The notes below the pieces were generated by a model. That model saw only the letters and a program-made list of their open reading frames with translations. It was not told the DNA's origin and did not search any database. A program made the position numbers and the translations under genes. From Protoeuglena noctilucae (taxonomy: Eukaryota): a stretch of 64,000 nt of DNA. The stretch is from NCBI GenBank assembly GCA_958009085.1, contig OY253675.1:62001-126000 (forward strand), in the 5' to 3' direction. Positions 4,048 to 58,833 of this stretch are shown here, piece by piece. Numbering within the stretch: position 1 is the stretch's first letter; every line of letters begins with the position of its first letter.

Positions 4048-6724
<2,677 letters not shown>

Positions 6725-38400: not shown

Positions 38401-41400
38401 GGAAGGAGGCAACGAGGGCGACGGGTGGAGTCGAGAAGCGTTCAAACGCCCCGGCGGAGTCGGGTGGCGGGTCAGATTCAAATTCCAATTCAAATTCGGA
38501 TAGATCGGATACGGGCATCGGTGGGTCGGAGGGCGGGCGCGGGAGTGCGGTGGAGTGGCGGGAGCGGCAGGGGGTGGTGGATGTTAGGGAGTATGTGCAT
38601 AATCGCTATCAGGGTGCCATGAATCCACTCAAGACGGAGATGGGGAAGGAGGGTGCGGGGAGTGGGCATGAGTCTGCGGGGGGTGGGGAGGGGGGGAGAG
38701 GGGAGCGAGGGGGAGAGCGGGGGGGTGTCGTCGGATGCTGAGATCGTGGGGAGGGGAGGTGAGAAGATGAGATGGTATCGTTGATTGATAGATTAATTAG
38801 TTAAACACGGTGATTGGGGCTTGTGTTGACGGACTCTGGGGTGTGGAGCGTGCGAACATGTTGCCACGGCTCACCGGTACCCGCGCACCCTCACCACTCA
38901 CCCTCACCCTCACCTCACCCACACTCTCACTGCCACTCTCACCCTCACCCTCACCCCCCCCCCCGCAGCCGACGCCCCACCACCCCACCCCCCGAGTCAG
39001 TGCCAGAATTCACAGCCACTGAGATGGCCACGATGCGTGCCTTGCCACCCAAGAAGCCCTCTCTTCGATTCTTGGCGATGCGCTCCAGCCTTATGATGGG
39101 GGGGGCGGGAGACGAGGGCGGGGAGGGGGGCAAGGGGGCGGAGAGGGGGAGGGAGAGGGAGGGGAAGGTGAGGGGTGGGGGTGGTTGGGAGGGTGGCGGT
39201 GGGGGTGGTGATATGGGTGGTATTGGGGGTGGCAGTGGGGGTGGTAGTGAGGGCGACATTAAGGGTAGCAGTGAGGCTAGCATCAATGACAATAACAGCA
39301 CTCATCATTCCCCGCCACATCTCATCTCCTCGTCCCCGCAGCCCCCCGCAACCACCCCCTTCGGCATGATCCGCGTCGATGACTCTGGCGGCGATCTGAG
39401 TCAGCGGGGGGGGTGGAAGGCAGACGCGGCGGCGCACCGGGACAGCATGTTTGGCGGCGGGGCGGGCGGGGGGCGGGGGCGGGAGCGGGGCGGCGAGGGC
39501 AGGCGGCAGGGTGGGGGAGACGGGGAGCAGGCGAGGGAAGCCGGCGCGGGGCGGGAGAGGGACCGCGATCGCGAGGGAGGCGCGGACAGGGGTAAAGATA
39601 AGGATATTGATGAGGATAGGGAGAGAGAGAGGGAGCGCCGGGACCGGAGGGAGCGCCGGGCGTCGCGAGTGAGGGACATGTCGAGCGATTCCGGGTCCGA
39701 GGAGCGGAGCGTGGCGCGGAGGGGCGAAAAGCGGGACCGAAAAGACGGCAAGAGCGTTAATGTCATGGACGGGCGCGGCGGGAAGGCGGAGGGCGGGCGC
39801 GGCGGGGAGGAGAGCGACGGCGACCGGCGACCGCGCTCGCTCGCGCGGCCGGCGCCGCGACGACCGCGGAGCCGGCGATAATGAGCGACGAAATGACTTC
39901 GATCGCGATCGCGACCGGGCGCTGGGCCGCGGGCGCGCGCGGTCGGCGCGGGTGCGTGCGGAACGTCCGGCGGGGGCGATGGGCGATTTGACGGAGGAGG
40001 CTGCGGAAGAGGACCGACTCCGCGACGAGACGCGATCGTTCCAGGATCCGACGGAGCTGGAAGGGGACGCGGAGGCGGCGGACGGGTCGCCGCGGACGGG
40101 GGTGGGCGGGGCGGTGGTGCCGAGGACCTATGCTGACCAGGTGGGGGGTCACTGCGAGGGGATACATGGGGTGGTTGATTCCATGAATGGGTTGGTTGGG
40201 TTTGGTATGTTTGATTGGGATTTGTTGATACTGGGATGGCTGGAGAGGGGCTGTACAGCGATTTAGCAAGGCGGAGGGAGGCAACGTGCTGTGATGGTTG
40301 AGTGATGGGAAGTTGGCCCTTGGCTCGTGTCGAGTGCTTGGATCAATGCCCGATATCATCACAACACATGTAAATGACAATTAACAGATTAACATATTGT
40401 TAACATATCCGCATCCACCTCCCCCCCAGCTCGACCGCACCGGCGTGGGCGGGGCGATGCGCGACTGGATGCAGGCGACGGCGGGCGCTGCCAGCCAGGC
40501 AGCGGAGAAGGCCCGCCGCGCGCAGCAGGAATTGATGAAAGACAAATTCGCGGCCGTCGTGAAGGCCGCGCTGCGAGCGAGGCGCGAGGCCGCCAAAGAG
40601 GAGGCGGACGGGGCGCGCGGGGGTGGAGGGGGTCAAGCGGGGTTCTATTCGCGCGCTGCGGTGATCGAGATGGCGTCGCGGCACGCGCAGCAGATGCGGC
40701 AGCTGCAGGCGGCGTACGAGGATCGGATCACCGCCATGGAGGACAGGTGACGATTTGCGGTGGGGTTTCTGCTGAGGGTACAATTAGTAGAGGAGGGGGG
40801 TGATGGGCAGTGCATGGATCGCATCACCGCCATGGAGGACAGGTGAGGGGGGGAGGGGGGTGGTGTGTTGTTGTTTGTTGTTGTCACTGTTGTAGGAAGG
40901 GTAGGGGAGTGAGTGGATGGGATCACCGCCATGGAGGACAGGCGAGGGGCGATGAGGGCGGGTGTTAGGGGTGTAAGGTGCAATCAAAGTGAGGTAGTGA
41001 AACTGATCGAGTCACCGACATGGAGGACAGGCGAGGGGGGGTCGGTGTCTTGGGGTGTTGGGGAGTGGTGGTGCGAGTGGTCGAGTGAGCTAGTGGCATA
41101 GGAAAGTAGAAGATAGTGTAGAGGGGTAGCGATGGGGAGGGCAGCGAATGGATCGAATCGCAGCGATGGTGGTTAGACGAGGGCGCACATGGCGCCTCCA
41201 TCCCACACCCTCCCTGTCACCCACCCACACGCTCACTAGCAAACCCTGCCCATGGCTCACCATCCTCATTCTCCCAATAACCGTCCACCCCTGTCTTTCA
41301 AATCCTACCCAACCATTCCCCAACCACTCCCCCCCTGCAACGCAGGCACAAGGAGCGCCTGACCCGCGCCCACCCCACCCGACCCCGTGGCCCCGCCCCC

Positions 41401-44400
41401 GCCGCCACCCGCACCCGCGCCGGCGACGAAAAAGGGGACGCGGATCGAGACGTGGTGACGCGGGGGTTGCTGGATTTGATGGGCGCGCAGATGCGGGGGG
41501 TGGCGGACCCGCACCTGACGGAGCAGGCGACACGCCAGACCGAGGACTTTTTGGAATCCGCGGGGCTGTCGAAGGACATGGTGGCCGCCGCGAGTCGGAG
41601 GTCGATGCGGTCCGCGCTGGGGATCGAAGCGGGGACCTCCCGTCGGTCAGGGATGGCGAGCGCAAGCCGGGTGAGGGGGGGCGGTATTATGGGGGGGGAG
41701 GGTAGGGGGTGGGGTGGTGTTTGCTGTGTGGGGAGGTTGGCGGTTGATGCTGGTGGGGGAGAGAAGTGCAACGGAGAGAAAATAACATTACTGCACAGCT
41801 GTAGCTATCTGTCACAGCTAGTACCACCAACAACCCCGCTCTCGCTCTACCTACCACCCCACTCTCACCTTCACCCCTCCCTCTCTCTCTCCCCCCTCTC
41901 AGCTCTCGGCCCACAGTGCCTCCCTCCCTCTCTCTCACTCTCACTCTCATCCCCCACTCACCCTCACCCCTCTCTCTCCCTCTCCCCACAGCTCTCGGCC
42001 CACAGCGCCTCCCGCCCCGCGTCCCGCGCCGACCTCACCGCCCCCTCCACCTCCCAACGCCCATCGCGCAACGAAGCGCCGCCACCCCCGCCCTTCGCCA
42101 GTGCAGCCGCGAGGCTAGCGGCAGAGAGCGGGGCGCTGACCGATTGGGGAGAAGGGGCGGGTGCTGGGGGTGTTGCACTCGCAGCTGCGAGGGGGGGGTC
42201 GCCAGTACCGGTGCCAGTACCGGTGCCAGTGTGGGCGTCGGAATCGGGTGTCGCGGGCCGCCAGTCGCCGTCTGCGGGGCTGGCGACGGCGGCGGCGGCG
42301 GGGCAGCTGTTTGCGGGTGGGGAGGCGGGCCGCGCGGCCCTGCTGGCGAGGCCGGGGTCTGCGGTGGGGGAGGCGAGGGGGGCAGGGGCGGGGGCGGCGT
42401 TCGCGAGGCCCATGGTGAGGGGTGGGGGGTGATGGTGTGGTGTGTGGGTGATAGTGTGGTGAGGGTAATTGCGTGGGATGGTTGTGATGATGGGTGAAGA
42501 GTGGGTGTAGAGGGGATGTAGGTGGTTAGAGTGGATAGTTGGGTGTGGATAGGGTGGGAGAGGTTGGGTGGGGTGGCAGTGTGGGTAGAGTTTGTGGTGG
42601 GGGGCCATGTGACAACAAGTGGAGATGAAGACAATAGGATGGCAGTTGTGTGGTCATTATCACATGCATCTCTGCCACGCCTTGCCACCCCACTCCACCG
42701 CTCACACCACCCCCACTACCCCCCCACCCACTCCCCCCATCACCCATCCACCCTAACCCTCCTTACCCCTACCCCCCACTCCCCCCCCGCAGTCTGCCGC
42801 ACCCACCCCCTCCCGCCGCTCCCGCCTTGACCCCTCAGCGACCGCCACCGCCCCCACCGCCACGCCCGCCCCCTTCGCCCCTCCTCCCTTCCTCGACCCA
42901 CTGCCAGAATCCGCGTCCCTCGCCAGCCTGGGTCGAACGGGCGACCTCCGGCGCGCTGGGCGGGACGCCTGGGCCGAGGAGGGCTCGGAGGCACGCGGCG
43001 GGGGTTCGAACCCTGGCGCCGGCGGCGCCTTTTTGGGTGCGGCGGCGGGGATCGAAGGGCGGCTGTCGGAAGTGGTGCCGGAGGCATCGGAAGGGTCATT
43101 GGCGGATGCAATGGAAAGAGCAGAGGGGGCGAGGGGGGTAGGTGGGCGCGGGGCGGGGGCGGCGGTGGCGGTGGTGGAGGGCGGGGGTGGGGGACGGGCG
43201 GCGGCGTTGGCGGAGCCGCGACAGCGCGGACAGAAGGCGCATCAAGCACGGCCCGTGTCGGGTGAGTTGGAGTGAAGTAGTGGGGGGTAATAGATGGGAC
43301 GTGGATGTGGGTATGGATTCCGTATGGGTGATTGTGATGGATTAGACACTCTTGTGACACTGCCACCTCTCTCCGCACCCCCCTCCACTTCACCCCAACC
43401 CCGCAGCCATCGTAGCACAACGCTCCACCCCCACCCCACCCCCTCACTCCACCCACCCCTACCCCACCCCCGCAGCCATCGTAACACAACGCTCCGTCCC
43501 CGACCCCATCCGCCGCCATTTGTCATTCACTCCCTCACCCCCACCACACCCGCAGCCATTCTGGCACAGCGCTCCACCCCCACCTCGGTTCCCGACCCCA
43601 TCCGCCGCCATTCGCCATTCACTCCCTCATCCCCGTTACCCCCGCAGCCATTCTGGCACATCGCTCCACCCCCACTTCGGTTCCTGACCCCATCCGCCGC
43701 CATTTGTCGTCCGCCCGCGCCGACCCCGCCCACCGCCGGGGATCACGGCCCGCCACAGGGTCGACGGTTCAAATCTCGCGGCCGGCGTCGGGGGCCGTGG
43801 GGGCCATCGCGGGAGCGGCAGGTGAGGGGGGGGGGGGCTGTGAGGGGGAGATGAGATGAGTGGGAAGTGGATGAGTGGCGTTGTTATGTGAGTTGTTCAT
43901 AATCGTTGTTTATGGATTCAATTACTATCATAACAGACACTCAATTGTCTCCTGCAATGACTCACCATCACCCACTTATCCCCCTCCCCCGCAGCCCCCC
44001 ACCCCGCCCGTGCACGGAGCGCCACCACACAACACCCAAGCAACAACCAAAACCAACCCACCCTCGCCATCACCGCCACCGCCACAGCCACCGCCGCTCA
44101 CCCTACCAGCACTGTTAGTAATGCGGAGAGGGGCAGGCAGCAGGAGGGCTTTGCGGGTGCAGCGGTGTTGCGCAAAGGGGGGAGACCGGCGACGGCGAGG
44201 GTGGGGGCGGTGGGGGGTGCGACGGATAAGGACAGAGAAAGGGATAAGGATGGATCGCTGTTCGTGGCGCCGAGGCCGTCGCTGATGGGGGTGTCCAACC
44301 GGAGCCTGCTGATGGTGAGGGGGGGTGGGGGTGGGGGTAGCATTGGGGTAGCGATGGCTGTTGTTGTATGCTCTCGCTTACCCTTTCTCAACTCTCACCT

Positions 44401-44730
44401 CATCCCCCACTCACCTACATCTCACCTATCACTCCCATCACCCCCCAACTCACCCCACTCACCTATCCCACCTATCTCTATCACTCACTGCCCCCCAACT
44501 CCCCCATCCCCCAGGACCCCACCGCCCCCACCCCCGCTTCCTCGACCGTCGTGGCCGGTCGCGACGTGCAGCCCGTCCGCAACCATCTCTTCATATACCC
44601 ACCCAAAGACGCGGAATCGGCATCGCGGCTGACGTATGGGGATAGAGCGAGGGCGGTGAGGGGGGAGCATGTGTTGAGTGTGACGCCCTATGGGGGGTGG
44701 AGCGTGGAGGGGCGGAGTGGGAGGGGGTAA
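29476..44730 (+). CDS. very large multi-exon hypothetical protein (helical/coiled-coil segments separated by Gly/Ser/Arg-rich disordered regions); may be more than one gene
   Basis: Chain of codon-biased exons with compatible phases (e.g. EKARGLMQWVETGQLMSK; ETRLFLDLFKDNAML; SLWSSHFAMEGLSLYS; DREAAARAVLRKRQQDFDDG; AQQELMKDKFAAVVKA; NHLFIYPPKD). No recognisable domain; a few apparent frameshifts at G-runs. Confidence 0.55.
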
Positions 44731-45121
44731 TTGATGAGTGATGGGTGTGATGAGGGCGATGAGCGGACAAGCCACTTAATCTATGCTGAAGATAATAATT
44801 TTACTTGGTTTACTGTTATTGTGAGTTTTTAGCTGTAGCAGGGCTGTGATAGACTAGCTGGTTAACAGACGTGATCGTGGCTGAGAGATGTCATCCCTGT
44901 GCCGGTGAAAGCGAAGTAACAGCACTCACTACCAATCCTATCAATTATTGCCACGGTCAGAGTCTCAGTATCCCTCTCTTCAATCGCGGAACACAGCCAT
45001 CTACAACCCTATCTAATACGCGTACCCACCACCACCCTCACTACCACCCTCCCCCATCTCACCACCACCCCACCACACCCACACCCTCCCTACCACACCA
45101 ACCCACCCCACCCCTCCCCAT

Positions 45122-48100
45122 TCACTTGCGCCCCTTTTTCGCAAACTCCTCCCTCAGATTCCGCCTCACTCCCCGCGCTTCCCCACTCTTCCCTCCATCC
45201 CCACCCCTCCACTTCCCACCACCCCCGCCCCTAACCCCACCCCCCGCACCGCCACCCATCGCACCAACATCGCTATCATTATCCAATTCCACTCCCACTG
45301 CGCTATTCCCCTCCTCATCTGTCGGCTCGTCGTCCCCGCCGCCACCCTTCCCGGCATTCCTGACACCGCCGCCTCTGACACCACCTGTTCTGACACCGCC
45401 GGCTCTGGCGCCAGTCTTGGCGTTTGCCGCGGGGGCGGTGCGCCCGGCCTTGGCAGCAGCGCCGCGTTGCTTGCCTCCCCGTTTGCGCACAGCAACGGGG
45501 GCAGTGGCAGCGGGGGTGGCAATGGCAGCGGGGGTGGCGATGTGGGCGGGGGTGGCGGCAGCGGTGGCTGTGATGCGGGGGGCGGTGCGGTCGAGTGGCT
45601 GCGGGTGAGGGGGAGTGGTTGGTTGATGGGAGTGGTTAGTTGATGAGGGTTAGGGGTTTGAGTAACATGCCACCACCCTATGCCATCTTCGTATCACCAT
45701 GCTCCGCTTACCACCCACACCCCTGCATGTCTCCCACCTATCGCACCAATCATTCCCACTCCACTATAGCTACTATTATTAATCCCTTATAGATGCACCC
45801 CCTCACCTGCGCCACTGCCGTGACCTGGCACCCCGTGCGCCTCTCCACCCACCGTCCACCACTCACCACTCACCACCCACACCCCACCATTACTCTAATC
45901 AACAATTACTCAAACTGTCATATCTACTTCTCACCTGCGCCAGCGCCGTGACCTGGCACCCCGTGCGTTTCTCCACCCACCGCCCCACCGTGAACACCCA
46001 CGCCGCCCCCCTCTCCCCCCCCGCCAACGCCTCCTCCACAATCACGCTCTCCGGCAGCCATGCCGAGAACAGTCCTCGCCCGCTGTGGCCCAGCCGCAGC
46101 TGCTTCAAGCGGCCCAGGTAACGTAACGCGGGGAATTCGAACTCGTCCACGCAGCCCGCCTTGAACTGCGGATTTGAATGAGATGGGGTTGATTTGAATG
46201 TGGGATTCGGTGTGCTGCAGTTACCATCATGCATATATGCATGATGGCGATAGATGATGACTTGATCATAACGTCAACATGACCATTATTGTTATCATAA
46301 CAGAACACATCCCTCCCCCCTCACCCTCCTCGGCCCCATGCGCGGCTGGATGAGACCCGAGGTGCCCCTCTCTCCCGTGATCTCGAAATGCACCTGAGAT
46401 GGAAAAGGCATAAGGATTAAGTTGATTAATGACTGTCACCAACCGTCGCCGCTCATCACAACCCATCACCACATCCCAATCCACTTATCCATTCATTCAA
46501 ATCCCCCACCCCCATCCACCCCCCACCTGCGCCCCCGTCCCAACCCACCTACCACAACACATGACCATACCTAAATTCATCCATTCAAATCCCCCACCCC
46601 CCATTCAACCCCAATCCAACTCCCCACCTGCGCCCCCGTCCCCGCCCCCGCCCCATCATCACAACATGCCAATCCATCGATCTCTCATCTCTCATACACC
46701 CAAATACCCCCCACCCAACCCAACCCCCCACCTGCGCCCCCGTCCCCGCCCCGCACTTCCTTGCCGTGGCAAACGTGACCCTGTACCCCCGCAGCCTGGC
46801 GGCCACCAGCTCATCCGCCTGCGTAGATGCGTCCGCCACAGTCACTGTCGTCTGCGCGTAGTGCACGCGATCGGAACCCAGCACGCTTTGCAGCGTGGCG
46901 TGGCAGGGGAAGCGCTGGGTGAGCGGGCGGCTGTCGTGGACGTGGGAGACGGTGATGGCCTCCAGGGGCCAGCGAATCTGGGGGTGGGAATGATATGGAA
47001 TAAACGTGTTACTGATGAGTGGTGGTTTAGATTTGTACTGCAACATATGGATTACACCCATATCTGGGAGACGGTCCAAAGCTCCTCCAACCCTTACTCG
47101 CATGCGCATCTCACCACCCCCGTCTCTCATAACAGCCAATCATATATAGCCATTCCCACACCCCATCTCACCTCGTGCACCCCCCTCATGAGCACGTGCA
47201 TCTTTGTCAGCACGCCCATCTCCCCCGCCGCCTCCGTTTGAAACGCGTCCGTCTGACCGGGGCGGAAAAGCCTGCCATTCTCGTCCGGCCACCTCCCCGT
47301 GCAGTTTCCGGCGAACAACTGGCGCCACCCCACCCCGTCCGGGTATCGATCCGAGTATAACAGGACATCCAGATTGTCAGAAACGGACTGACCGGGCTCG
47401 TCGCCCGTCTGCACCTCGAACGTGACCGGATAGGCGAACCCGGGACCTGTGATATTCCTATCGTAGTCCCCGGCATTCTGGCCATTTCTGGCAGTGTCGC
47501 CAGAGAGGGCGGAGGCGAGGGCGTTGGGCCTCTGTGCCGCGGCTGCCAGGAATGCGTCGGAATCGAGTGCCAGAGGAAGGAAGGGCTCGGATGGGGAGGG
47601 GGAGAGGAGCTGGGGGGGACAGAGAGGGGGGTGATGGGTGAGGGGGTGAGATGGGGTGGAGTTGGGCGAGGGGAGCGATGACTGGGTGACGATAGTGGTG
47701 TGAGTGATAAGTAAAATGGAACGGGGTGAGGGGTCTGAAGAGAGCTGGTGCAATCTCCACTCGCTTAGTTGATAACAATACACACACACTTATATACACG
47801 CACAACCCACACCCCACACTCGCCTTGTCGCATCGGAACACGGCCGTCTCCCTGGTAGTCAGGCACAGGATTTGAATATCGACCAGATGCCACTCGAAGG
47901 GACCCCAGAGCTTGAGATGCAGGCGGTGCATGGGGCTGGGGGGGGAGAGAGTGGGTGAGGGAGTGAATGAGGGACTGGGTGAGAGGGTGAGGGAGCGAGA
48001 GGGTGTTTACATGAAAGGGACGGGAGGAGTAGAGGTGCGGGCAGTGCATGGGTCAACCCCCACCCCATCCCATCTCACCACCCCCCACCCCATCCAATCC

Positions 48101-51100
48101 CTCACCTGACCGCGGCGTCGTCTGCAATCGTCAACAGCACAACACAACAGTGCACCCATCCCACCACACCCCATCCATATCCCACTCCCCACCATCTCAC
48201 CTGCCCGCGGCGTCGTCGGCGAATCGGCAATACAAGACAGTCCCACCCCATCCAACCCCACCCCATCTCACACCCATCCAATTCCCATAACATCCCAAAT
48301 CGCAATCCGTCACCTGACCGCCGCATCGTCTGCGAATTGGAACTCGAGCGGCCGCCGGTGGCTCAGCACCCCATCCCCCGGGGCTTCGTGCCACTCGGTC
48401 TGCTGTTCGTCTCCCCCCGACACCATCATGCTTATTTGGCGGGGGGGCACGCGGGTCTGGGGGCCCGAGCGGATGCTCACGCGATACCTGAGAGGGAGGG
48501 GGGGGGGGGTTGAGAGTAGCAATGGGGGTATGGGTGAGGTGAGAGATGGGGTGCGGGTGGGGGTGGCAGTGGGGTGGCAGTGGGGGGGGTGGCAGTGGGA
48601 GTGGGGGTGGCAGTGGGGGTGGCAGTGGGGGTGGCTTAGCAGTGGGGAAGCGGGGGCAATCACGCGCTGTCCCCGATCCCGATATGGAGTTCCAACAAAC
48701 ACACACACCCATTCATTGCAATATCAACCATATACAAACACAACCACTCCCCAAAGCCCCTCACCCGTGCTCTGCCGCCCCCTCTGCCCTCCGCACCAGC
48801 CGCACCGCCCCCCCCCTCCCCTGCCCCGCCACCGCCGGCGCCAATCCACCCGCTGCCGGGCCGAAGAAGTACTGGGAGCCGTCTGAGTATATCAACACCA
48901 TCTTGACGCACTGCCAGGTTAACCCCACGCCGCCCTGCGATGTGACGAGGGGGGTGTTGGGGTGGGGGGTTGTTGGGATGGGTGTTGGGGTGTGGGGTGG
49001 GGGCAGAGTAGCATGGAGTAGCATACAATACAATAGTACTATACTGTATGCTACTTATATATTCCATACACTATATGCATTAACAGTGGATAATTACAAC
49101 ATGATTATGACATGACACCCCATCTCCCCTAACAACCCCATCACCCACCCCCCTCTCATCTCCCTTCCCCCCTCCCCCCCCTTCATCTCACCTGCCCCGC
49201 CCCGCCCGTGTCCATTTGAATCTCCACGAACTGAGGGTCGCCGACGTCGTGGTAGGGGATTTCGAATTCGTCCCTCGCCCCCCGCTGGAAGGGGAGCGTG
49301 CCCGGTTTCGCGATTAAGGTGCTGTAGTCGGTGCGATTCGAACTCCCGACCACGGAGATGGCCACCGAGTTGGGCGGCGCCGAGGCGTCTGGGCGAGTGC
49401 CGGTGGTGGCCAACACGCGCGTGACTTGCGGTTTCCTGGCGCCAGTGTCGGCGGCGGGGGGTCCGTCCCGGGACTCCATGCGGCGCTCCAGGCTGTGGTC
49501 GGGGGAGAGCCAGTCCTGGGGGAGAGATGGGGGGTTTTATAATGGTAATTGTGATAATAGTGATAATACTATGATATACGATGATGGCTAGTGAGTGTGC
49601 ATCCATGCGGCGCTCCAGGCTGTGGTCGGGGGAGAGCCAGTCCTGTCATGTCCTGTGATTGCGAGATTGCTAAAGCATACACACACCCATCATAACCAAA
49701 TTACATTACCAAATAACACCAACTCATCGACCATCCCACCCCTCACCCGTAGATGGAACCACCTCGTGTGTTTCTTTGTCCTATCGGTCCCCTCGTGTGT
49801 GGCCTCTATATGCGATAAGTGCCACGTGTCGTCCACCTTGCCATCGGGGCTGAGCAGCGCAGTGCCCGGCTGAAGGCGAACCGACATGGCCTGCGAGTGA
49901 GGGTGGGGGTTGGGGAGGGGGTGATGATTATATAATTTGTTTGTTTATTATTACTATTATTGATCAATACTCTTAGGTAAAGAGTCCCTGCTCCGACCCG
50001 GTCGCATATCTTACCATATCCACTGTCCATATCTACCATAACTATCAATATCCACCATTACATATGAATACAATTACCCAACCACTCAAACTCGCCTTCA
50101 TCCTCCCCACGTCCCTCCCCTGCACCCCCAGGAACGCCTGCTCCGACCCGGTGGCGAATCCCCGGAACCCCGGCCTGGTTAACTCCAGCCATCCCGTGTC
50201 GCCGTTTTCACCATAAACATTCAAGAACACGGGGGAGTTGGTGCCGGCGCCGGGGATGTTGGTCGTGAAGACCTGAGGGGGTGAACAGTATTACTTATTG
50301 CTTGCATAACAAAACCTGATACTGATGGTAGCAAGCGGCACTGATAGTAAGGCTGCCTTAAGTTATTGCAAGACCATACCATGTCAAAAGGTACAGCTCG
50401 CCCGGCATGTGCAAGCACATACACCCATCACCCCACTCCCATCCCACTCCCCATCAATAAAACTCGCCTTGAACGTGTACGCGCACACCCCCTTCCTGGC
50501 CGCAGGGTCCCCCCCCTCCGTCAACACCCTCTCGCTCCTCACATCGCCCGCCCCCTGCCCCAGCCAACCATCGCCATGCTCCGGCACGTCGGCCCAGAAC
50601 ACAAAGGGACGCGGGAGGCCGTTCGCGGTCGCTGTCACGCGCCGCAGTCGCCAGGAGTGGTTGCCGGGGCCCGGGCGCAGCCCCACAGTGAGGTGGGTGG
50701 GGGTGCCGATGGGGGAGGGGGAGATGACGGTGACGGAGCTGCGGGAGTGGGTGGGTGTTTATTATATATGATTATTACTAGTACATATATATTAGATGCG
50801 TATGTCAACTGATAGCGTGGGTGAGGTGGGTGGGGGTGCCGATGGGGGCGGGGGAGGTGACGGTGACGGAGCTGCAAAGGGAGTGGTGATGAAAGGGAGT
50901 GGTGATGGGTGGTTGGTGGTTAAGGAGTGGTATTCATCATCATCAGTGGTATTAATATTTATTAATTATCAGTTCCTACTCCTTCCCTCTCACGGCGACG
51001 CCCCCCCGCGAACCCCTGCACATCCGCATCATCAATATCACCCGTATTGATATATATCATTATATTATGTATAACTATACAGTACATTTACCAACCCGCG

Positions 51101-54100
51101 ACTCACCGCGCCGTCCCCCCCGCGAACCCCTGCGCGTGTGCCACGTCCTGCGCCCCCGTCTGCCCCAGCGTGCCCTTTAAGTTGACATATGCCTGGCTGG
51201 TGGTGCCGGAGAGGGTCTCGAATTCCAAGGTATATTCGGTGGGCTTGGAGCCGGCCTGGAGGCGGGCCTGGGTGTCAGGGGAGGGGGATGGTGGAGTTAG
51301 ATATAGTTATGGTTATCATGATTATTACATTCCAGCGTGTACTCGGTGGGCTTGGAGGCGATAGTAATAATCACAACCCACAACTACCACCCACCCATTC
51401 CCCCTCACCTCTCTTGGCTTCTCCCCCCCCAGCCACCCCTTGCAGTGGAAGTACCACTCACTCATGATACTACAAACATCCATAATACTAGTAATAGTAA
51501 CTTGATAATCATAACCCCCTCACCTCCCTGGGCTTCTCCCCTCCCAGCCACCCCTTGCAGTGGAAGTACCACTCCTTATCCCCGCTCGCCACCCTTATCC
51601 AATCCAGCTGCCACGCGTCCGCGCCCGCCCCCCCCTCCAGCCCCACCACGCACTCCCGCAGGTCGCCCAGGGGGGGGAGCTCCCTGCGATTAGAAAGAGA
51701 TGGGTTGGGAAAATGTTATTATAATAATATGCGTATTGTTTATTACATGCTCTGCAGCTGAACTGCTATCCATTGCCTGTCCAAGTTGTCTTGCCGCCCC
51801 CACCCCATCGTGCTATTTACTTACTGCACTATTAATTGTCAGTGCTATTCATCATAGTAATAGTAACCCCATCCTCAACTACTCGCCAACCACCCCACCG
51901 CACCTGTCGAAGTTATCGATTTGTCCCGGCCGGAACGGGGGCTGCCTATCGCTGTCGATCAGCTCCACTCTCCCCTCACCTCGTGCAATAATGGTATTAC
52001 TCAGTATTTACTAGTAATACTAGTAATACTATTACTGCAAGATACCACTCCCACCGTACCTGTCGAAGTTATCCACTTGTCCCGGCCGGAATGGTGGTTT
52101 TTTATCGCTCTCGATCAGCTCCACCCTGCCGCTGCTCCCCTGCGCCCCCGTCAGCGCCACCACCACCGTCGCCACCGTCCCCGCCTCCCGGTCATCGCCC
52201 GTCTTCACGCTGATGCGGTACCTGGGTGGGGATTATGAATGGGGATTGTGGGTGAATATGGGTTTATGGGACTATAAACGACGATCAGTGGTCGTCGCCC
52301 GTCTTCACGCTGATGCGGTATCTGAATGGGGGGGATTATGGGAATAGATATGGGATTATAAACGAGGATGAATGATTGTGGATGTTTGAAAGAGATAATG
52401 ATGAACGGTGCATTGTTCATCCCAGCGACCGTGTTGGCACAAACAGATTATACACATTCAGTACATCCACATATAGTTATAGCTTATACATCACAACCAC
52501 CCCCTCGCCTCTGCTTCTGCGCTTTGGGCGCCTCCTTGGCCCTCCCCATCTCCAGCGTGCGCCTCTCCCTGCCCATCACCGCCCTGCCAGTAAACCACGC
52601 CTCGTCAATGATTTGGTTATTCCGGCTCTGCCGCACCCGCACGCACTCGGGCACCCAGTCGGGCGACTCGCCCTTGCCGTCGATGTCCAGGATGACCTGG
52701 GAAGGGAGGTGGGGGGAGTGAGACTTATTAAGTAAAGTAACAGTTCAACTATCATCATTAATAACTACAATTATCAGAGATATATCGCAATAGCTACTTA
52801 CCTGGTAAATTCGCAAACTCGAATTTACTCATAATTCACTGCTATATAGCAAATGCTGTCAGTAAAACACATCGCAACTGACAACCCATCGCATCGGACA
52901 TCGCATCGCTCCCCCCACCCTTTCCATCCAATCTCGCCTTGTTCATCTTGCCCACTGGCTTGGACGACATTTTGAAGAAATCCTTCTGCGCCCTCCGGAA
53001 GGGGACGGACGCGTCTTGCGGGTGCAGCTCCATCTGACCGGTGCGGCCACCCTCGCCCCTGGGGGGAGAAGAGGGAATGATGATAAGAGAATGATGATCG
53101 TGGTTTGGTGCACTGATGATCCCCGATGGATCACGCAACATCACCCCGACATGACTGGTACACCACCACCACCCGCACAAGACAACCCACTACACCGCCT
53201 TTACCACAAGCACTACCAGCCCACATTACAACCACCATCTCCCAACACTCACTCCACAGTTAACGTGACCGCGCTGGTCGTGGTGGGCCGCCTCTCGTCC
53301 GCCGTGTGCACCTCCACCTCGTAATCCGCCGACTCGTCCGCCTGACGCGGGCGGTCTGACGCCAGTAAACGCTTCGTCAGTCCGTCGGCGTCGGACAGCC
53401 ACGCGTGGCAGGGGAAGTAGTAGGTGTGGTTCTGGACCTGAAAGAAGAGAGAGGGAAGTGGAAAGGGTTTTATATTTAATAATAAATAGGAGATGATACG
53501 GTGCGTGTGGCTCTGGGCCTGAAGGGACAGATGCGAAAAGAGGTGCTCATTCTGAACTTAAGCAAGCCCAAGCGCATCCCTATTAACACCCACTCGCCTT
53601 CACCACCACCTCCTGCAGCTTCCAGGGCTTGCGGCTCCCCGCCGGCAGCAGCTGCACCGTCGCCGCCTCGAGCGGACCCACGGGGGGGCCGTCCCTCACA
53701 AACTCGTCCCTCCCGCCCCGCTCGAATAATTTCCCGGAACTGTCCTCTAATTGGAAAGGGCCCACCGAGTCGCGGCCGGAGTGCAGCGTCAGCTTGACCT
53801 CCCCATCCGTGGCCGCGCCTGCGGTTGATGGATAATGTTTATGCAGTTGATGATATCCACCGTGGTCAGTCGATGGATAATGGTGGTCAGTCGATTGATA
53901 GTAATTGGGTGAAAGTGATTATCGGTTTTATTGGTAGGATTGATTGATGGATAGATGGGGAGTGTCGATGAACTGACAGTAGGTAGCAACTAGTCCTTTA
54001 CGGAAACCACCGTCAATAGATAGTAACTAAATAACAACTAAATAGCTAAGCATACACATAACAAGCGCCTCACCCCTCTCGTCCGCGGTGAGGATGCTGA

Positions 54101-57100
54101 TGAAGTACTGCACGACCTTGGGCCTCGTATCGATCGGACCGGCATGCACCTCCAGCGTTCTCTCTAGCGTGTTATCCGATCGGCGCAGCCACTGCCCGCA
54201 CAGGAACTGGTACACCCGCCCCGTCGATATGTCTTTCACGGCCACTCGCTCCAGCAGCCAGTCCGGGCTCGTGCCCAGGCCATTGTGGCCGATCACCAGG
54301 CGGCTGCGATTGGATTGGGTGAGAGGGAGAGGGAGCGTGATGGTGGTGACATGGATGTCACATTATGACTGTTATGTTGTTATTATGATGCTTTTATAAT
54401 GATGTCAGAAAAAAGTACTAATAAAATTATTACAATGTTTACATTATAGTTGTATATTTACAACTATAATGAATTATTGCCAACACATCCATCCCATCCA
54501 CTCACGTGAGTTCCCCCACGTCAGGGACGTTGTCGAGTCGGAATCGTGCTGTGTTGCCCCTCCGGAAGTCCCCCTCATGGCAGGGCAGAGAGAGGGTGCC
54601 CGTGGCCCCGCCTGTCCCAATGAACTTCACGTACACGTCCGCGCTCGTGCCTGCGAGATATGGTGATAGTACTAGTATTGATAGTAGTATTGATAGTTAT
54701 GGTAGTAGTGATGGTGATATTAATAGTAATAGTAATAAAATAGAAATAAAATAGAAATAGAAATAGAAACAGAAACAGAAATCAAACAACACTCGCCTGC
54801 CCCCTGCGCGTCCCGGGTGACGATGTGTATCTCGAAAGCCTTGGTCTGCCGGTTGCCCTCTTGCGTGACCGGGATGCGCACCGTCGTCCCCGCCAGCACC
54901 GCAGAGGCAGGGGCGTCAAAGAAGTAACGGTCGCCCGAACGCAGGTCTGGGATGATAGGATATGAAGGGGAGAGAATAGTTGCAAGAGCAGTTCATGTCA
55001 AGCATTTATTGTATTTCTATTTGTAATAGTTAAATCGATGAAATTATATACAAACTGTTACGAGTTGCATGGCAGTCGAACACTGCCATAACCCTATAAC
55101 ATGCCAATAACTTCAATTTTGTAACAATAACAAGTACATTGCCACACACCCCAGACCCTCTCACCGGTGATGCGTCCGTGGTCAATGCCCCACCCGCGCT
55201 CCCCCCGCCCCCGCGGCAGCTTGATGGTCAGGAACTGCAGCCGGCCCAGCGCCCCCGCCTCGGTCAGCAGATGCTGCGAGCTGCTGTTTCTGGCGAATCC
55301 CCCGGGGGGGGGCTGCACGCGGTGGTGGGTGCCGGGGCCCCGGTCGCCCTCCAGCTGCGGGCGGGGCGATTTGAATGGGGGTGGGGATTTGAAAATTTGA
55401 ACGAAGATTTGGAAATAGCAGTGAGTGGGATTGTGGACGAGAGTGGCTGGAGTGATGGGCAACCCTTGGTGGTCTCTCTCATGAGCGCGACGGTCGGCAG
55501 TGAGAGGCGTTTATCATAAAATAAGTAACATAATGATGAAAGTATTAATTATAACACCCATCAGTATATTATCCCACCTGCACGACGACCTCCGCGTCCC
55601 ACTGCGACCCCTGGGCGTCCTTGGTCTTGAACGCCACCTCGTACTGATAAGACTCGAGCTCGGTGGCCTGGGAATCTCGAATGAGATGTAAACTATTGTG
55701 AGCAATAAAGTCATTATTGATAGTTGCATCTGCAATATCTACAGTTGTCCTTATAATATGATGTAAATCTAATTTCAATTACTATAAAATTTACATACTC
55801 ACGCATAATTATACTGATAATTATCATACATTATCACCACTTCGCCTCCCTTCATGGCCCTCCCCCCTCTCCCCTCGCCTGTGCGTAGAGGTCTGCGACG
55901 GTGGTGTGGTCGGCCCCCCTCGTCTTGCTGAGCCACCTCTGGCATAGAAACGTCCACTCCCGCCCCGTCGCCATGTGCAGCACGCGCACCGACTCCAGGT
56001 ACCAGTCGGGGTGGCGGCCGGAGCAGTCGTGCCACACACGCAGGATCTGGGGGTGGGGTGGGGTGGGTGGTCAGGGATGAGGGTGAGTGGTGGGATGGTG
56101 AGGGTGAGGGTGAGAGGTGATAGATGGGGAGTGGTGCTGGCACATCAACCTTTCATCATCCCATCACCGTCTCGCCTGTATGTCTCCGATGTCTTTGGGC
56201 ACCTCCACTCGGAAAGTGTCTGCCATGCCACGCTGGAAGGGGGGCTGGCCACTGGGGGTGGAGAGGGTTGAAAGTTGGTGGTGTTACACAGTAGCGATAC
56301 ACAACACGAAAATCATATGCCTCTGAGTTGGGCATAGCAATCGACCACATCACTCCTCAACCCTCAATCGCTTATCTCGCTCATTCCTCTCACCTGACGG
56401 GGCTCGCGAGCGCGATGGACCCCAACACGCACATGCAACAGCAACCCAGTCAGCATTACTACCCATCTCCAGTGCCACTCTTCTAACCTGACCGGGCTGG
56501 CCAGGGCGATGGACCCCGACGTCCCCTCGTCCCCCACCATCTCCGCATAGACGCGGGACGAGGTGCCCGCCTCCGCCTGCTGGCCCGTGCGCACAGTGAA
56601 CTCGTATACTAATGCGCCGCGGCTGCGGTGAACATGACGAATAGCTATAAGTATAGTAATAAGTATATGAGTAACTATCGACAGCCGATCGTACTGGCTA
56701 TGCAGCTTTGTCTCGCACCCACCATACCAACAACAACAAACATCGCACATCGCACAGCGACGCACCCCACCACCCCACCCACCCCCCTCACCTCCCGCCC
56801 CCTCCCCCCACCCCACCCCTCCTCGGCGACCACCTCATTCCACTCGCGCTTGCGTGATGCGGCAGGGGCGGCAGCGTGAGGCTGAGGTCCAACCCACCGT
56901 GCGCGTCAGCCTGCCTGACCGCGTGCAGGGCGCAGTCGCGCCAGGCGTCGCTCAGGCGGCGCATCCACAGGCGGGCGTCCGCTGCGAGTGAGGGAATGTG
57001 GAATGAGTTAGTGACAAAAGGGGTGAGGTAGAGGATGATGCATGGCGCATGCACAGGCGAGCGTCTGCTGCGACTGAATAGAGCTTAAATAGACATGGGG

Positions 57101-58833
57101 CCACCAGCGACGGTCGACAGTCTGCAGCTGACCACTCACCTGGTGTCTCATCGTCAAGTCAATCCACCCCATCAATCACGTTCCCTCAGCCGTATCGCTG
57201 ACCCCTCACCCGGCGTCTCGGCCGCCAGGAAGAAGGTGTGCACCATCACATGGACATGATAATCGTGAACCACACCCCATGAATACCACAATCACACCAA
57301 CTCACCCGGCGTCTCTGCCGCCAGGGAGAACGTGTGCACCACCACGTCAGTACAACAATCCAATTATTACTGATAGTATCCACTCACTACTATCAGCATC
57401 AGCATCACGAACACAAACACTCACCCGGCGTCTCTGCCGCCAGGAAGAACGTGTGCACCCCGCACGTGACGGCAAACACCCTCCCCGCCAGCCTGGCGTG
57501 CTGCACCCCTCCCTCCTCGTCATCACCCCCAATCCGCAAGTCAGGGACGGGACCGCGGATGCGACTGGTCAGCTGGCGAGGGTCCACCGCCTCAATGGGC
57601 TCGCGGGGGGGGGCCGGGCCGCGGGCACGGGGCGGGGGGGTGGCGGAGGTGCAGGCGGGGGCTGCGGGTGGGGTGGGGTGGGTGGGGATGGGTGGGGTGA
57701 GCGCGGGGCGGGGGGGTGGCGGAGGTGCGGGCGGGGGCTGCGGGGGTGGGGTGGGTGGGGTGAGAGTGGGGTGACAGGGTCAGGTGGGTTGCGTTCGATG
57801 GTTGCGTGGGTGGTGAAGAAAGGGTGTGGGTGGTTGCGGCTGCGACACTGCAACAAGGCCGATGCGATTCCCTGCATAGCGCACTACGCTCGACTGTATC
57901 AGCTATGACTCGTGACTGCACCAACTATGATCATTCGTGACTTTGCCCGCTTGCCTGGTTCGTAGTCTCCGTCGTCGAGGGGCAGCCGCGGTGGCGATGC
58001 GCGGGTGGCGGAGCGGGGGCGGCGGGGGAGGTTGGCGGGCATGTGACGCACGGGGAACTGCGGGCACGGATGGGGGTAGATGAGAGATGAGAGAGTGTGT
58101 GATGCTGGCAGTGCATGTGACGCACGGGGAACTGCGGACACAGATGGGGATGGATTGGAGATGAGGGAGAGTTAACATGGCATGTGACGCATTGCGGACC
58201 GTTGAGGATAAGAGAGACAGATGGATATAAGAGTGACAGGGGTTGGCATGGCATGTGTCGCAGCGTGGACAGGTGTTGATTACTCCACCATGCATTGGCC
58301 GCATCACAGCGCATGGTAAGATAGATAGCGACTTGCCTGGTCAAGGGGCAGGTACTTCAGCCCGGCCCTGTCCTTGCTCTGGTTGCTGCGGTAGTAGCAG
58401 AGGCGGTCGGGCAGGAGCACGAACTGCGGGAGAGGACGAGGACGAGTCAGCGGATGGCTGTGTTGATGACGACGGGCCATCATCGCTGCTGCGTTGGGCT
58501 GGACACTCGCACTCACGTAGCGACGCTTCCAGCTATGGCCGGGGGCGTCGTTGGTGAGCTTGTACAGCCATCTGCGGTCGCAAAAAGCGAGTTTATTCAC
58601 GAAACCACAACAATACGTCGAAACGACGTCGCCGGCGGGTCAGGCATCCGCCCACACCCTCACCCCTGGTGCAAAACCCGCTGCGACACCTCCGTGGTGT
58701 TCTGCATGGACAGCCAGGTGTCATCCTGGTGCGATGCGGACATCCCGCGCAGTCGAGGGGACCGGCCGGGGCGTCCCGGGTCTGCGGGACGCAACGGGAG
58801 ACCACGCATCTCGCGGGACGCGCTCCGACTCAT
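45122..58833 (-). CDS. N-terminal PH domain + ~12 tandem PLAT/LH2 domains (LOXHD1-like), >30 exons
   Basis: PH: 'VLHQG|WLYKLTN...SWKRRY|FVLLPDRLCYYRS...VHTFFLAAETP|ADARLWMRRL'. PLAT repeats: 'YEFTVRTG...AGTSSRVYAEMVGDEG...FQRGMADTF...HDCSGRHPDWYLESVRV...WTFLCQRWL', 'IGHNGLGTSPDWLLERVAV...YQFLCGQWL', 'GAGTNSPVFLNVYGENGDTG', 'FQRGARDEFEI', 'FKAGCVDEFEF...LGRLKQLRLGH'. Last exon ends ...FAKKGRK*. Confidence 0.85.
48560..48635 (+). repeat. intronic minisatellite (GGGGTGGCAGTG)n
   Basis: Five or more ~12-bp units; same motif as 16317-16392. Confidence 0.7.
54737..54781 (+). repeat. intronic microsatellite (AAATAG/AAACAG)n
   Basis: aaatagaaataaaatagaaatagaaatagaaacagaaacagaaa. Confidence 0.8.

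What the first reader, a model, noticed from the sequence alone, without database searches (positions are those of the whole stretch)
51222..51576. One intron carrying both a donor echo (3/3 synonymous) and a downstream-exon echo (4/4 synonymous)
Minus strand. Donor side: EWYFHCKGWLGGEKPRE|gtgag repeated with GGA>GGG, CCC>CCA, AGG>AGA only. Acceptor side: exon TCC AAG CCC ACC GAA TAT ACC TTG GAA versus echo TCC AAG CCC ACC GAG TAC ACG CTG GAA (SKPTEYTLE), including a first-position synonymous Leu change; this echo lacks the splice site. Seven of seven changes are silent within one ~250-nt intron.
Basis: seen in the sequence. Interest (0 to 1): 0.75.

Follow-up and report, generated by a model that had tools for sequence, protein, structure and literature searches.

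The report
Exon-end echoes inside algal introns
One intron of a marine green-alga-like genome holds decaying copies of the ends of both neighbouring exons, a habit shared by many introns nearby, which looks like introns growing by copying their own borders and keeping a partial record of older exon sequence.

Summary
On the minus strand, a 256-nt GT-AG intron (51523-51268) of a multi-PLAT-domain gene carries a 60-nt copy of the upstream exon end plus splice donor (57/60 identical) and a 27-28-nt copy of the downstream exon start. All seven differences are silent. It is not a mis-assembly: contigs from an independent culture reproduce it without a difference.

It is not special to this intron. 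At least 15 exon borders in the window, on both strands and in several genes, have one to four such echoes. All are direct repeats within 250 nt. Across 21 echo/exon alignments, 32 of 50 differences fall on third codon positions, and the replacements are conservative. Other echoes carry replacements and frame-breaking gaps, and the two focal echoes are out of frame with the exon.

Best reading: local duplication of exon-intron junctions that is tolerated because the copy joined to the exon body is spliced. Most differences passed a protein filter, so the echoes changed less than expected. Why is open.

No RNA covers the focal intron and no relatives were found. This is a new variant of a known kind: the human F7 boundary minisatellite and intron birth by duplication.

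The parts
51524..51574 (-). Last 51 nt of exon B (EWYFHCKGWLGGEKPRE). This is the end of a PLAT domain and the source copy of the donor echo.
51515..51523 (-). Presumed functional 5' splice site, gtgaggggg.
   Evidence: Its use is inferred from the frame and is not shown by RNA.
51460..51514 (-). Spacer S1: 55 nt, 25% GC, with no relative elsewhere in the window.
51400..51459 (-). Donor echo: 51 exon-like nt plus gtgaggggg, 57/60 identical to 51515-51574. The three differences are all silent third-position changes. It lies in the +1 frame of read-through.
51358..51399 (-). Spacer S2: G/T-rich, composed like the 5' part of an intron.
51330..51357 (-). Acceptor echo (SKPTEYTLE). Over the 27 nt 51356-51330 it is 23/27 identical to exon C 51249-51223, and one search gives 25/29 over 51357-51329. 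The four differences are all silent. It has no AG, carries an 11-nt gap against the exon start, and lies in the +2 frame.
51268..51329 (-). Spacer S3: A/T-rich, then C-rich, ending in the acceptor cag.
51223..51267 (-). Start of exon C (ARLQAGSKPTEYTLE), the source copy of the acceptor echo.
51894..52130 (-). Neighbouring donor echo pair, family o: 65 exon-like nt with 9 changed letters (E>D, K>R, K>Q, V>I and two silent).
52190..52331 (-). Neighbouring acceptor echo pair, family p. The echo keeps its own cag, and the flanks are also related.
50688..50875 (-). Acceptor echo pair, family k: 53/55 identical, and both differences are replacements (I>T, S>A).
49475..49645 (-). Acceptor echo pair, family j: 44/44 identical, with unrelated sequence on both sides.
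40720..41041 (+). A series of four donor copies in another gene, spaced 89-99 nt. The distal copies have gcgag and a 5-nt gap.
43392..43708 (+). A series of four acceptor copies in another gene. The last two are a true 92-nt tandem repeat. The arithmetic of one RNA contig fits use of the last copy (exon start 43648).

Best explanation
The echoes are leftovers of small local duplications, 25-90 nt of sequence copied 50-215 nt away in direct orientation, that span an exon-intron junction.

Such a duplication does no harm if the spliceosome uses the donor copy that adjoins the upstream exon body and the acceptor copy that adjoins the downstream exon body. The other copy then lies inside the intron and is removed with it, so the intron grows and the mRNA does not change.

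This has happened repeatedly and in many genes of this genome, a GC-rich marine picoeukaryote whose beta-tubulin is closest to green algae. The result is series of decaying copies.

The silent-only differences arise because most differences between exon and echo passed a protein-level filter. By inference, they accumulated mainly in the exon copy, which is under purifying selection, while the echoes changed little.

Shown: the repeats, their reality in DNA, their spread, their direction, and the codon-position bias.

Inferred: which splice-site copy is used at the focal intron, the way the duplications arise, and which lineage changed.
For: Structure and reality
- The focal structure is read.
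- Independent culture and metagenome contigs are identical to the window.

Spread and direction
- 37 of 47 direct self-matches lie within 250 nt, and 0 inverted matches lie within 1500 nt.
- Echo families occur in several genes on both strands.
- Donor echoes always lie downstream of their exon and acceptor echoes upstream.

Duplication
- Some families are true tandem duplications. The flanks are related in 7 of 25 adjacent pairs.
- TRF reports arrays at 12851-12999, 16675-16781 and 43391-43708.

Not translated
- Read-through stops after VRGL, and the echoes are out of frame.

Splicing
- One RNA contig removes a 255-nt intron of the same gene as one piece (54073|53818).
- The 171 unlisted letters of another RNA contig fit exactly an exon that starts at the last of four acceptor copies.

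Codon pattern
- Positions 1/2/3 carry 10/8/32 of 50 differences. In a composition-aware permutation, 0 of 20000 runs reached the observed third-position count.
- The 18 replacement codon pairs have mean BLOSUM62 +0.44 against -0.80 for random replacements, P = 0.0014.
Against: - No RNA covers 50801-52000 in X9, and only traces do in X10. Use of the outer donor at 51523 and of the acceptor at 51268 therefore rests on frame and analogy.
- For the best-preserved blocks, the sequence beside the two copies is unrelated. These are j 44/44, r2 40/41, e 30/31, n 57/60 and k 53/55. TRF does not see them as tandem arrays. Plain tandem duplication does not explain them.
- If echoes drifted freely, they should contribute most of the differences, spread evenly over codon positions, with an expected third-position share of about 0.43-0.50. 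The observed share is 0.64, P about 0.005-0.03. Something slows change in the echoes, or the model is incomplete.
- Where exon and echo differ between A/T and G/C, the exon has the A/T 24 times and the echo 11 times. This is unexplained.
- The sample is one 64-kb window with 50 differences.
Confidence: 0.6

Rival explanations
1. The copies were not made by tandem duplication. Either a short foreign or filler segment (the A/T-rich spacer) was inserted near the junction with a long flanking duplication of 25-75 nt, as after widely staggered nicks. Or a patch copied from the junction was pasted into the intron during break repair. The outcome is the same: an intron lengthened with an echo inside. 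Only the mutational origin differs.
For: - Family j is 44/44 identical, with abrupt ends and unrelated flanks on both sides.
- The best-preserved blocks are the ones without flank likeness.
- TRF misses most families.
- Spacers are unique sequences of 17-126 nt.
Against: - Spacers share no ends, no family and no relatives in the window beyond G-rich low-complexity matches.
- Periods within a series are similar (96/99/89 and 74/74), as in array growth.
- 7 of 25 flanks are related.
- Only direct copies occur, whereas patch repair usually also gives inverted ones.
Confidence: 0.3
2. The echoes are kept in step with the coding exon by recombination between the two copies. This could be gene conversion, or deletion by annealing of the repeats, which now and then puts echo letters into the exon. 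In a very large population, echo variants that would damage the protein are then weeded out at second hand, so echoes evolve like coding DNA without being translated.
For: - The third-position share of 0.64 is close to what two constrained lineages would give, and the replacements are conservative.
- Exon-derived blocks stay 86-100% alike while the sequence beside them is unalignable.
- Frame-breaking gaps sit at block edges, where homology, and so exchange, would end.
Against: - No mosaic pattern that would show conversion was found in the four multi-copy families.
- Echo-versus-echo differences, counted by hand, are 2/3/5 at positions 1/2/3. That is too few to tell.
- The A/T-versus-G/C asymmetry is not predicted.
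- A bias towards A/T-to-G/C changes could by itself make replacements look conservative.
Confidence: 0.2
3. The echoes are working parts of the gene, either as small alternative or extra exons, or as decoy splice sites that steer or regulate splicing.
For: - 13 of 16 echo donors keep GT and 3 have GC. GC is apparently also used at exon ends of this gene.
- An AG at 51458-51457 would make the donor echo an in-frame 48-nt exon preceded by a 67-nt A/T-rich intron. That intron has the size and composition of the short A/T-rich introns described for low-GC regions of Mamiellophyceae (PMC3879977, passages read).
Against: - That reading would repeat 16 residues of a PLAT strand.
- The acceptor echo has no AG, and no frame-keeping donor was seen.
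- By eye, no in-frame AG acceptor was found directly upstream of the echoes of families q and h (sequence). This was not scanned by script.
- Distal copies decay with gaps and GT>GC changes.
- RNA contigs remove a 255-nt intron of this gene whole and skip three acceptor echoes in another gene.
- The intron does not fold better than shuffles (z -1.3).
Confidence: 0.07
4. Assembly artefact: two haplotypes or strains were laid in series.
For: The window comes from a metagenome, and silent differences are what alleles would show.
Against: - Contigs of a culture from another study are identical over 18 kb. They include the joins echo-spacer-exon copy (record 5, 51430-51572) and both echoes in one record (49616-51457).
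- Series of 3-4 copies cannot come from two haplotypes.
- Only one base difference and one 1-letter gap were listed over 18 kb among four runs.
Confidence: 0.02

Closest known systems
Human F7 intron 7 minisatellite (37-bp VNTR whose first unit spans the exon 7-intron 7 boundary), PMC1557585 (abstract read)
   Same: Direct repeats that start in the exon and run into the intron, so that the true donor is followed by look-alike donor sites that stay silent. There the most upstream site is chosen, which is what the frame requires here.
   Different: - F7 is a single locus with identical short units in a strict tandem array.
- Here it is a habit of many introns, at donor and acceptor sides alike.
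- The units are 50-215 nt, and their spacers are mostly unrelated.
- Splice-site choice is not shown by RNA at the focal intron.
Intron birth by segmental or tandem duplication of an exon piece holding AGGT (Hellsten et al. 2011, PMC3265369, abstract read; Drosophila cases PMC2891723, search listing only)
   Same: A local duplication supplies spare splice signals, and the duplicated exon letters end up inside an intron without changing the mRNA.
   Different: There, a new intron is created between the two copies. Here, an existing intron is lengthened and only one of its borders is duplicated at a time.
Introners / introner elements of Micromonas and other marine protists (PMC3879977, passages; PMC9860276 and PMC12130899, search listings only)
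   Same: Marine picoeukaryote, recent change of intron content, and direct repeats of target sequence beside inserted DNA.
   Different: - Introners are families of look-alike elements with short target duplications.
- Here the inserted spacers are unique: no family was found in 64 kb.
- The repeats are 24-75 nt of the host exon.
Short direct repeats at the two borders of introns (Rogers and Bendich 2025, PMC11782384, abstract read)
   Same: Direct repeats near splice sites, read as scars of insertion.
   Different: Those repeats are 4-30 bp and pair the 5' border with the 3' border of an intron. Here each border is repeated on its own, inside the intron.

Membership tests
Junction-spanning tandem repeat with silent pseudo splice sites (F7 IVS7 type) | Head-to-tail direct repeats whose first unit spans the exon-intron boundary. 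| tested here: inconclusive
   - Met for some families: the flanks are related in 7 of 25 adjacent pairs, and TRF reports arrays at 12851-12999 and 43391-43708.
- Not met for the focal pair: only the 60-nt block is alike, the 55-nt spacer is not.
Junction-spanning tandem repeat with silent pseudo splice sites (F7 IVS7 type) | The true splice site is followed by look-alike sites. | tested here: met
   gtgaggggg occurs at 51523 and again at 51408. 13 of 16 echo donors keep GT and 3 have GC.
Junction-spanning tandem repeat with silent pseudo splice sites (F7 IVS7 type) | The copy next to the exon body is the one used. | not testable with these tools
   No RNA covers the focal intron. Indirect support comes from the reading frame and from the arithmetic of one RNA contig in family g.
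Intron created by duplication of an AGGT-holding exon piece | The donor lies in the first copy, the acceptor in the second, and the intron is made of the duplicated piece. | tested here: not met
   The donor echo and the acceptor echo copy two different exons, and each lies beside its own border within an existing intron.
Introner (transposon-derived intron family) | Many introns share one element sequence. | tested here: not met
   Spacers match nothing else in the window except G-rich low-complexity stretches. Only 9 direct and 3 inverted self-matches lie beyond 500 nt. Only 64 kb could be searched.
Introner (transposon-derived intron family) | Terminal inverted repeats. | tested here: not met
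   The 5' halves against the reverse-complemented 3' halves of 16 introns score no better for the same intron than for different introns.
Alternative or mutually exclusive exons | Own acceptor and donor, frame kept, and seen in RNA. | tested here: inconclusive
   - The donor echo could be an in-frame 48-nt exon (AG at 51458-51457).
- The acceptor echo has no AG and no usable donor.
- RNA is lacking.
Mis-assembled haplotypes | Absent from independent assemblies of a clonal culture. | tested here: not met
   X1 culture contigs are identical, with 0 other letters.
PLAT/LH2 repeat protein (identity of the host gene) | Match to Pfam PF01477 in successive exons. | tested here: met
   - 5 of 7 exon frames tested match PLAT at E 8e-6 to 7e-3. 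Two of the five reach the curated cut-off.
- A 53-residue exon finds 224 proteins at E <= 0.001 with up to 17 matched stretches each, at most 49% identical apart from P0121.

The most novel reading that the evidence does not exclude
Introns of this alga carry a dated fossil record of their own exons, and these untranslated fossils evolve under second-hand protein-level selection. Frequent exchange or repeat-mediated deletion between echo and exon exposes echo letters to selection, so in a very large population a non-coding copy is kept silent-only for long periods. If that is so, exon-border echoes would be a new way to measure conversion and deletion rates, and to read ancestral coding states without an outgroup.
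Probability: 0.2. Interest if true: 0.75.

Novelty: new variant of a known kind. Interest (0 to 1): 0.55.

Why it matters
How introns grow and move is known mostly from rare single cases and from transposon-like introners.

Here a compact marine genome seems to lengthen many introns by copying their own borders. Each copy freezes a piece of the exon as it once was.

With a whole genome, and with the culture that exists, this gives hundreds of natural experiments on three questions:
- How does the spliceosome choose among identical sites?
- What mutation process makes 50-200-nt local duplications?
- Can non-coding copies be held under indirect selection?

For annotation it is a practical warning. 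Gene finders and protein aligners can pick the echo instead of the exon end.

Tried and rejected
- **RNA test of the focal intron.** X9 has no depth at 50801-52000 and X10 has 0.17-0.76, so nothing can be said about splice-site use there. The joint table was cut (31 joints not shown).
- **Relatives, to date the echoes.**
  - The scan of metagenome contigs with exon B gave two loci. One is a plant NAC-type gene by my reading. The other was not examined.
  - Protein searches with exon A found nothing among longer proteins and only the window's own piece among similar lengths.
  - The search of cluster representatives gave only distant multi-PLAT proteins, at most 49% identical.
  - No whole genome is held.
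- **Earlier notes of this scan.** None on this genome, and one unrelated note on other DNA.
- **Palindrome or foldback idea.** The stretch after the donor echo aligns to the reverse complement of the intron's 3' end (score 17). But same-intron scores are no higher than different-intron scores in 16 introns, so this is composition (a G/T-rich 5' half and a C/A-rich 3' half). Dropped.
- **RNA folding.** z = -1.3 for the focal intron and -0.08 for the RNA-supported one. Nothing special.
- **Spacers as a mobile family.** No support.
- **Family c.** First read as a minus-strand donor echo. It is better read as a purely intronic acceptor-side block on the plus strand, and it was left out of the codon counts.
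- **Families left out of the codon counts.**
  - g and s: the frame is ambiguous.
  - l: the alignment is gapped.
  - u: the echo copies an inner exon part.
  - d: the copy is identical, but the boundary-anchored alignment fails at a 14-nt gap.
  - One echo of family t (13 nt) fell below the 12-letter... 13-nt row was kept; only alignments under 12 nt were dropped.
- **Literature.** Searches for a description of such echoes found none. This covers only the held library and those terms.
Full report
**What is there.**
On the minus strand, exon B of a multi-PLAT-domain gene ends at 51524 with ...GAG TGG TAC TTC CAC TGC AAG GGG TGG CTG GGA GGG GAG AAG CCC AGG GAG, followed by gtgaggggg. After a 55-nt spacer of 25% GC, the same 51 letters plus gtgaggggg recur at 51459-51400. 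The only changes are GGA>GGG, CCC>CCA and AGG>AGA.

Exon C starts at 51267 after ...cacccag. Its codons TCC AAG CCC ACC GAA TAT ACC TTG GAA recur at 51356-51330 as ...GAG TAC ACG CTG GAA, without an AG in front and with an 11-letter gap against the exon start.

The intron is 256 nt, GT-AG. Both exons have open, GC3-rich frames (0.83 and 0.87) and match Pfam PLAT.

**Is it real DNA?**
The window belongs to a marine metagenome assembly. Four runs of a cultured organism from another study hold 0.99 of the sampled words of 47001-56900.

Laid on 40001-58000, contigs of culture run X1 cover 49616-51457, 51430-51572 and 51545-54704 with no other letter. Contigs of X6, another metagenome sample, cover 49902-51430 and 51543-52417. 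The contigs break only where the two donor copies share 32 identical letters, as a short-word assembler must. The only linear path through these pieces is the tandem order of the window.

Over the 18 kb, one base difference and one 1-letter gap were listed among the four runs. A haplotype or strain mis-join is therefore very unlikely.

**It is a habit of this genome.**
A self-comparison of the window gives 47 direct matches that pass my filters (length 22 or more, 28 bits or more, not low-complexity). Of these:
- 37 lie less than 250 nt apart.
- 1 lies at 250-500 nt.
- 9 lie further away.
- Of 3 inverted matches, none lies within 1500 nt.

Read on the coding strand, nearly all the close pairs are an exon end with its donor repeated downstream, or an acceptor with the exon start repeated upstream. 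They occur in several genes on both strands. Some borders have series:
- Four donor copies at 40720-41041, spaced 89-99 nt. The distal ones have gcgag and a 5-nt gap.
- Four acceptor copies at 43392-43708.
- Three copies at 12851-12999, 48095-48333 and 57205-57459.

The neighbouring introns of the same PLAT gene carry echoes too (51894/52050, 52190/52290, 50688/50821, 50989/51102, 49475/49602).

**Are the silent differences more than chance?**
I fixed the frame of each exon from open length and GC3. I then aligned 21 echo/exon pairs of 15 families without gaps.

- Of 50 unique differences, 10, 8 and 32 fall on codon positions 1, 2 and 3. P = 8e-6 against one third.
- In a permutation that keeps the base composition, 0 of 20000 runs reached the observed third-position count.
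- Of 52 changed letters (without family c, plus family m), 27 leave the amino acid unchanged.
- The 18 replacement codon pairs are conservative (K/R three times, V/I, I/V, E/D, L/V, L/I, F/L ...). Their mean BLOSUM62 is +0.44 against -0.80 for random replacements with the same number of changed letters, P = 0.0014.

So the focal 7 of 7 is the top of a real trend. Its chance at the window-wide silent share is about 0.01, before allowing for the choice among families.

Results against a coding reading of the echoes are just as clear:
- Family k differs only by replacements, I>T and S>A.
- Families e and r-mid each differ by one replacement.
- Echoes m, f2, l and d carry gaps of 11, 5, 1 and 14 letters.
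- Read-through from exon B stops after VRGL.
- The donor and acceptor echoes lie in the +1 and +2 frames.

**What the bias means.**
Suppose an echo drifted freely while the exon copy accepted only silent and mild changes. The echo lineage should then supply most of the differences, spread evenly over codon positions. The third-position share would be about 0.43-0.50. The observed 0.64 exceeds that at P 0.005-0.03.

Per site, positions 1 and 2 differ at about 4% and position 3 at about 14%. So the echoes changed at no more than roughly 0.4 of the rate of the exon's third positions.

Where the two copies differ between A/T and G/C, the exon has the A/T 24 times and the echo 11 times. The echo more often keeps the G/C-ending codon typical of this genome.

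I read this, with moderate confidence, as echoes being fairly well-kept records of older exon sequence. Why they are so well kept is not settled. The sample is small: one window and 50 differences.

**How the copies arise.**
Some families are plain tandem duplications that later diverged.
- The sequence beside the two copies is related in 7 of 25 adjacent pairs (a1, f3, i1, i2, l1, p1, t2).
- TRF reports arrays at 12851-12999, 16675-16781 and 43391-43708, the last with period 92 and 88% matches.

The best-preserved blocks, however, have unrelated flanks, and TRF does not see them. These are j (44/44), r2 (40/41), e (30/31), n (the focal donor echo, 57/60) and k (53/55).

For these, two origins fit better. 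One is that a spacer was inserted with a long flanking duplication. The other is that a copied patch of the junction was pasted into the intron.

The spacers are unique. They have no relatives in the window apart from G-rich low-complexity matches and no shared ends. They have the composition normal for their place in the intron: G/T-rich on the donor side, A/T-rich then C-rich on the acceptor side.

I could not decide between these origins without an empty site from a relative.

**Splicing.**
No RNA contig covers the focal intron. Two indirect supports exist.
- An RNA contig of X9 joins 54073 to 53818. This removes a 255-nt GT-AG intron of the same gene as one piece.
- Another X9 contig has pieces ending at 43260 and starting at 43991, with 171 letters between that are not listed. 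After allowing for letters that fit both sides, this is exactly the length of an exon from 43648 to 43821. Position 43648 is the last of the four acceptor copies.

One alternative parse is not excluded. An AG at 51458-51457 would make the donor echo an in-frame 48-nt exon behind a 67-nt A/T-rich intron. That intron has the size and composition of the short A/T-rich introns described for low-GC regions of Mamiellophyceae (PMC3879977, passages read). It would repeat 16 residues of a PLAT strand, and by eye the echoes of families q and h offer no comparable in-frame acceptor.

**Who and where.**
The beta-tubulin of the window is most like those of green algae. Named hits reach 94% for a volvocine alga and 93% for a record whose name begins 'Man', by my reading Mantoniella.

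GC falls from about 0.68 to 0.51-0.60 after 30 kb, and A/T-rich islands (introns) become dense there. This recalls the low-GC, intron-rich outlier regions of Mamiellales (10.1101/2025.04.21.649811 and PMC3879977, passages read). This placement is a lead, not a finding.

**Comparison with what is known.**
- The nearest described case is the human F7 intron 7 minisatellite. Its first unit spans the exon-intron boundary, so the true donor is followed by silent look-alikes and the most upstream site is used (PMC1557585, abstract).
- Intron birth by duplication of an exon piece (PMC3265369, abstract) shares the principle that duplicated splice signals hide duplicated exon letters.
- Introners differ. 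They are families of look-alike elements with short target duplications.
- My six literature searches found no account of pervasive exon-border echoes inside introns. This holds only for the held library and those terms.

**Verdict.**
- It is not an artefact.
- The feature is one instance of a genome-wide habit.
- The best explanation is junction duplication that lengthens introns.
- The silent-only pattern is real but not proof of function.
- The slow change of the echoes is an open and interesting residue.

Noticed in passing
window 59373-61064 (+): A 564-residue open frame matches reverse transcriptase RVT_1 (E 3.3e-23). It is probably a retroelement next to the PLAT gene.
   Followed up: no
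window 4643-6184 (-): A 514-residue open frame for beta-tubulin. Pfam Tubulin matches at residues 108-240 and Tubulin_C at 406-485. Most listed local alignments to other tubulins cover only about 47% of it. The frame may run through a G/C-rich intron that has no stop codon.
   Followed up: no
window about 53593, 52935, 52505 (-): Three exon ends of the PLAT gene seem to be followed by gcgag rather than gtgag, so GC donors may be common here. Three echo donors also read gcgag. No RNA check was possible.
   Followed up: no
window 51430-51572: The culture contig that bridges echo, spacer and exon copy has depth 366, against 205 and 158 for its neighbours. The culture may hold one more copy of the unit, or A/T-rich DNA is simply read more deeply.
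   Followed up: no
introns across 30-58 kb, e.g. 54073-53819 (-): Introns have a G/T-rich 5' half and a C/A-rich 3' half. The two halves of one intron are not more complementary than halves of different introns.
   Followed up: yes
window 48401-49000: Depth is 8329 in the culture run, against 100-300 elsewhere. It lies over GGGGTG / GTGGGGGTGGCA arrays at 48548-48635, a simple repeat that is abundant in the genome.
   Followed up: no
window 1-64000: GC drops from 0.64-0.72 (1-30 kb) to 0.51-0.63 (30-58 kb, apart from two bins near 0.68). A/T-rich islands rise from 0-5 to 6-18 per 4 kb. This is possibly the edge of a low-GC, intron-rich region.
   Followed up: partly
window 40001-58000: Only one base difference (55113 T>A, in X6 and X10) and one 1-letter gap (43826) were listed among the culture, two metagenome samples and the window. 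Diversity is very low over 18 kb.
   Followed up: no
window 12653-12772 (+): A tandem repeat lying wholly inside an intron: period 28/55, 4.3 copies, upstream of an acceptor. Local duplication is therefore not limited to exon borders.
   Followed up: no
all echo families (see parts): At sites where exon and echo differ between A/T and G/C, the exon has A/T 24 times and the echo 11 times. C/G transversions make up 14 of 50 differences. No explanation so far.
   Followed up: partly
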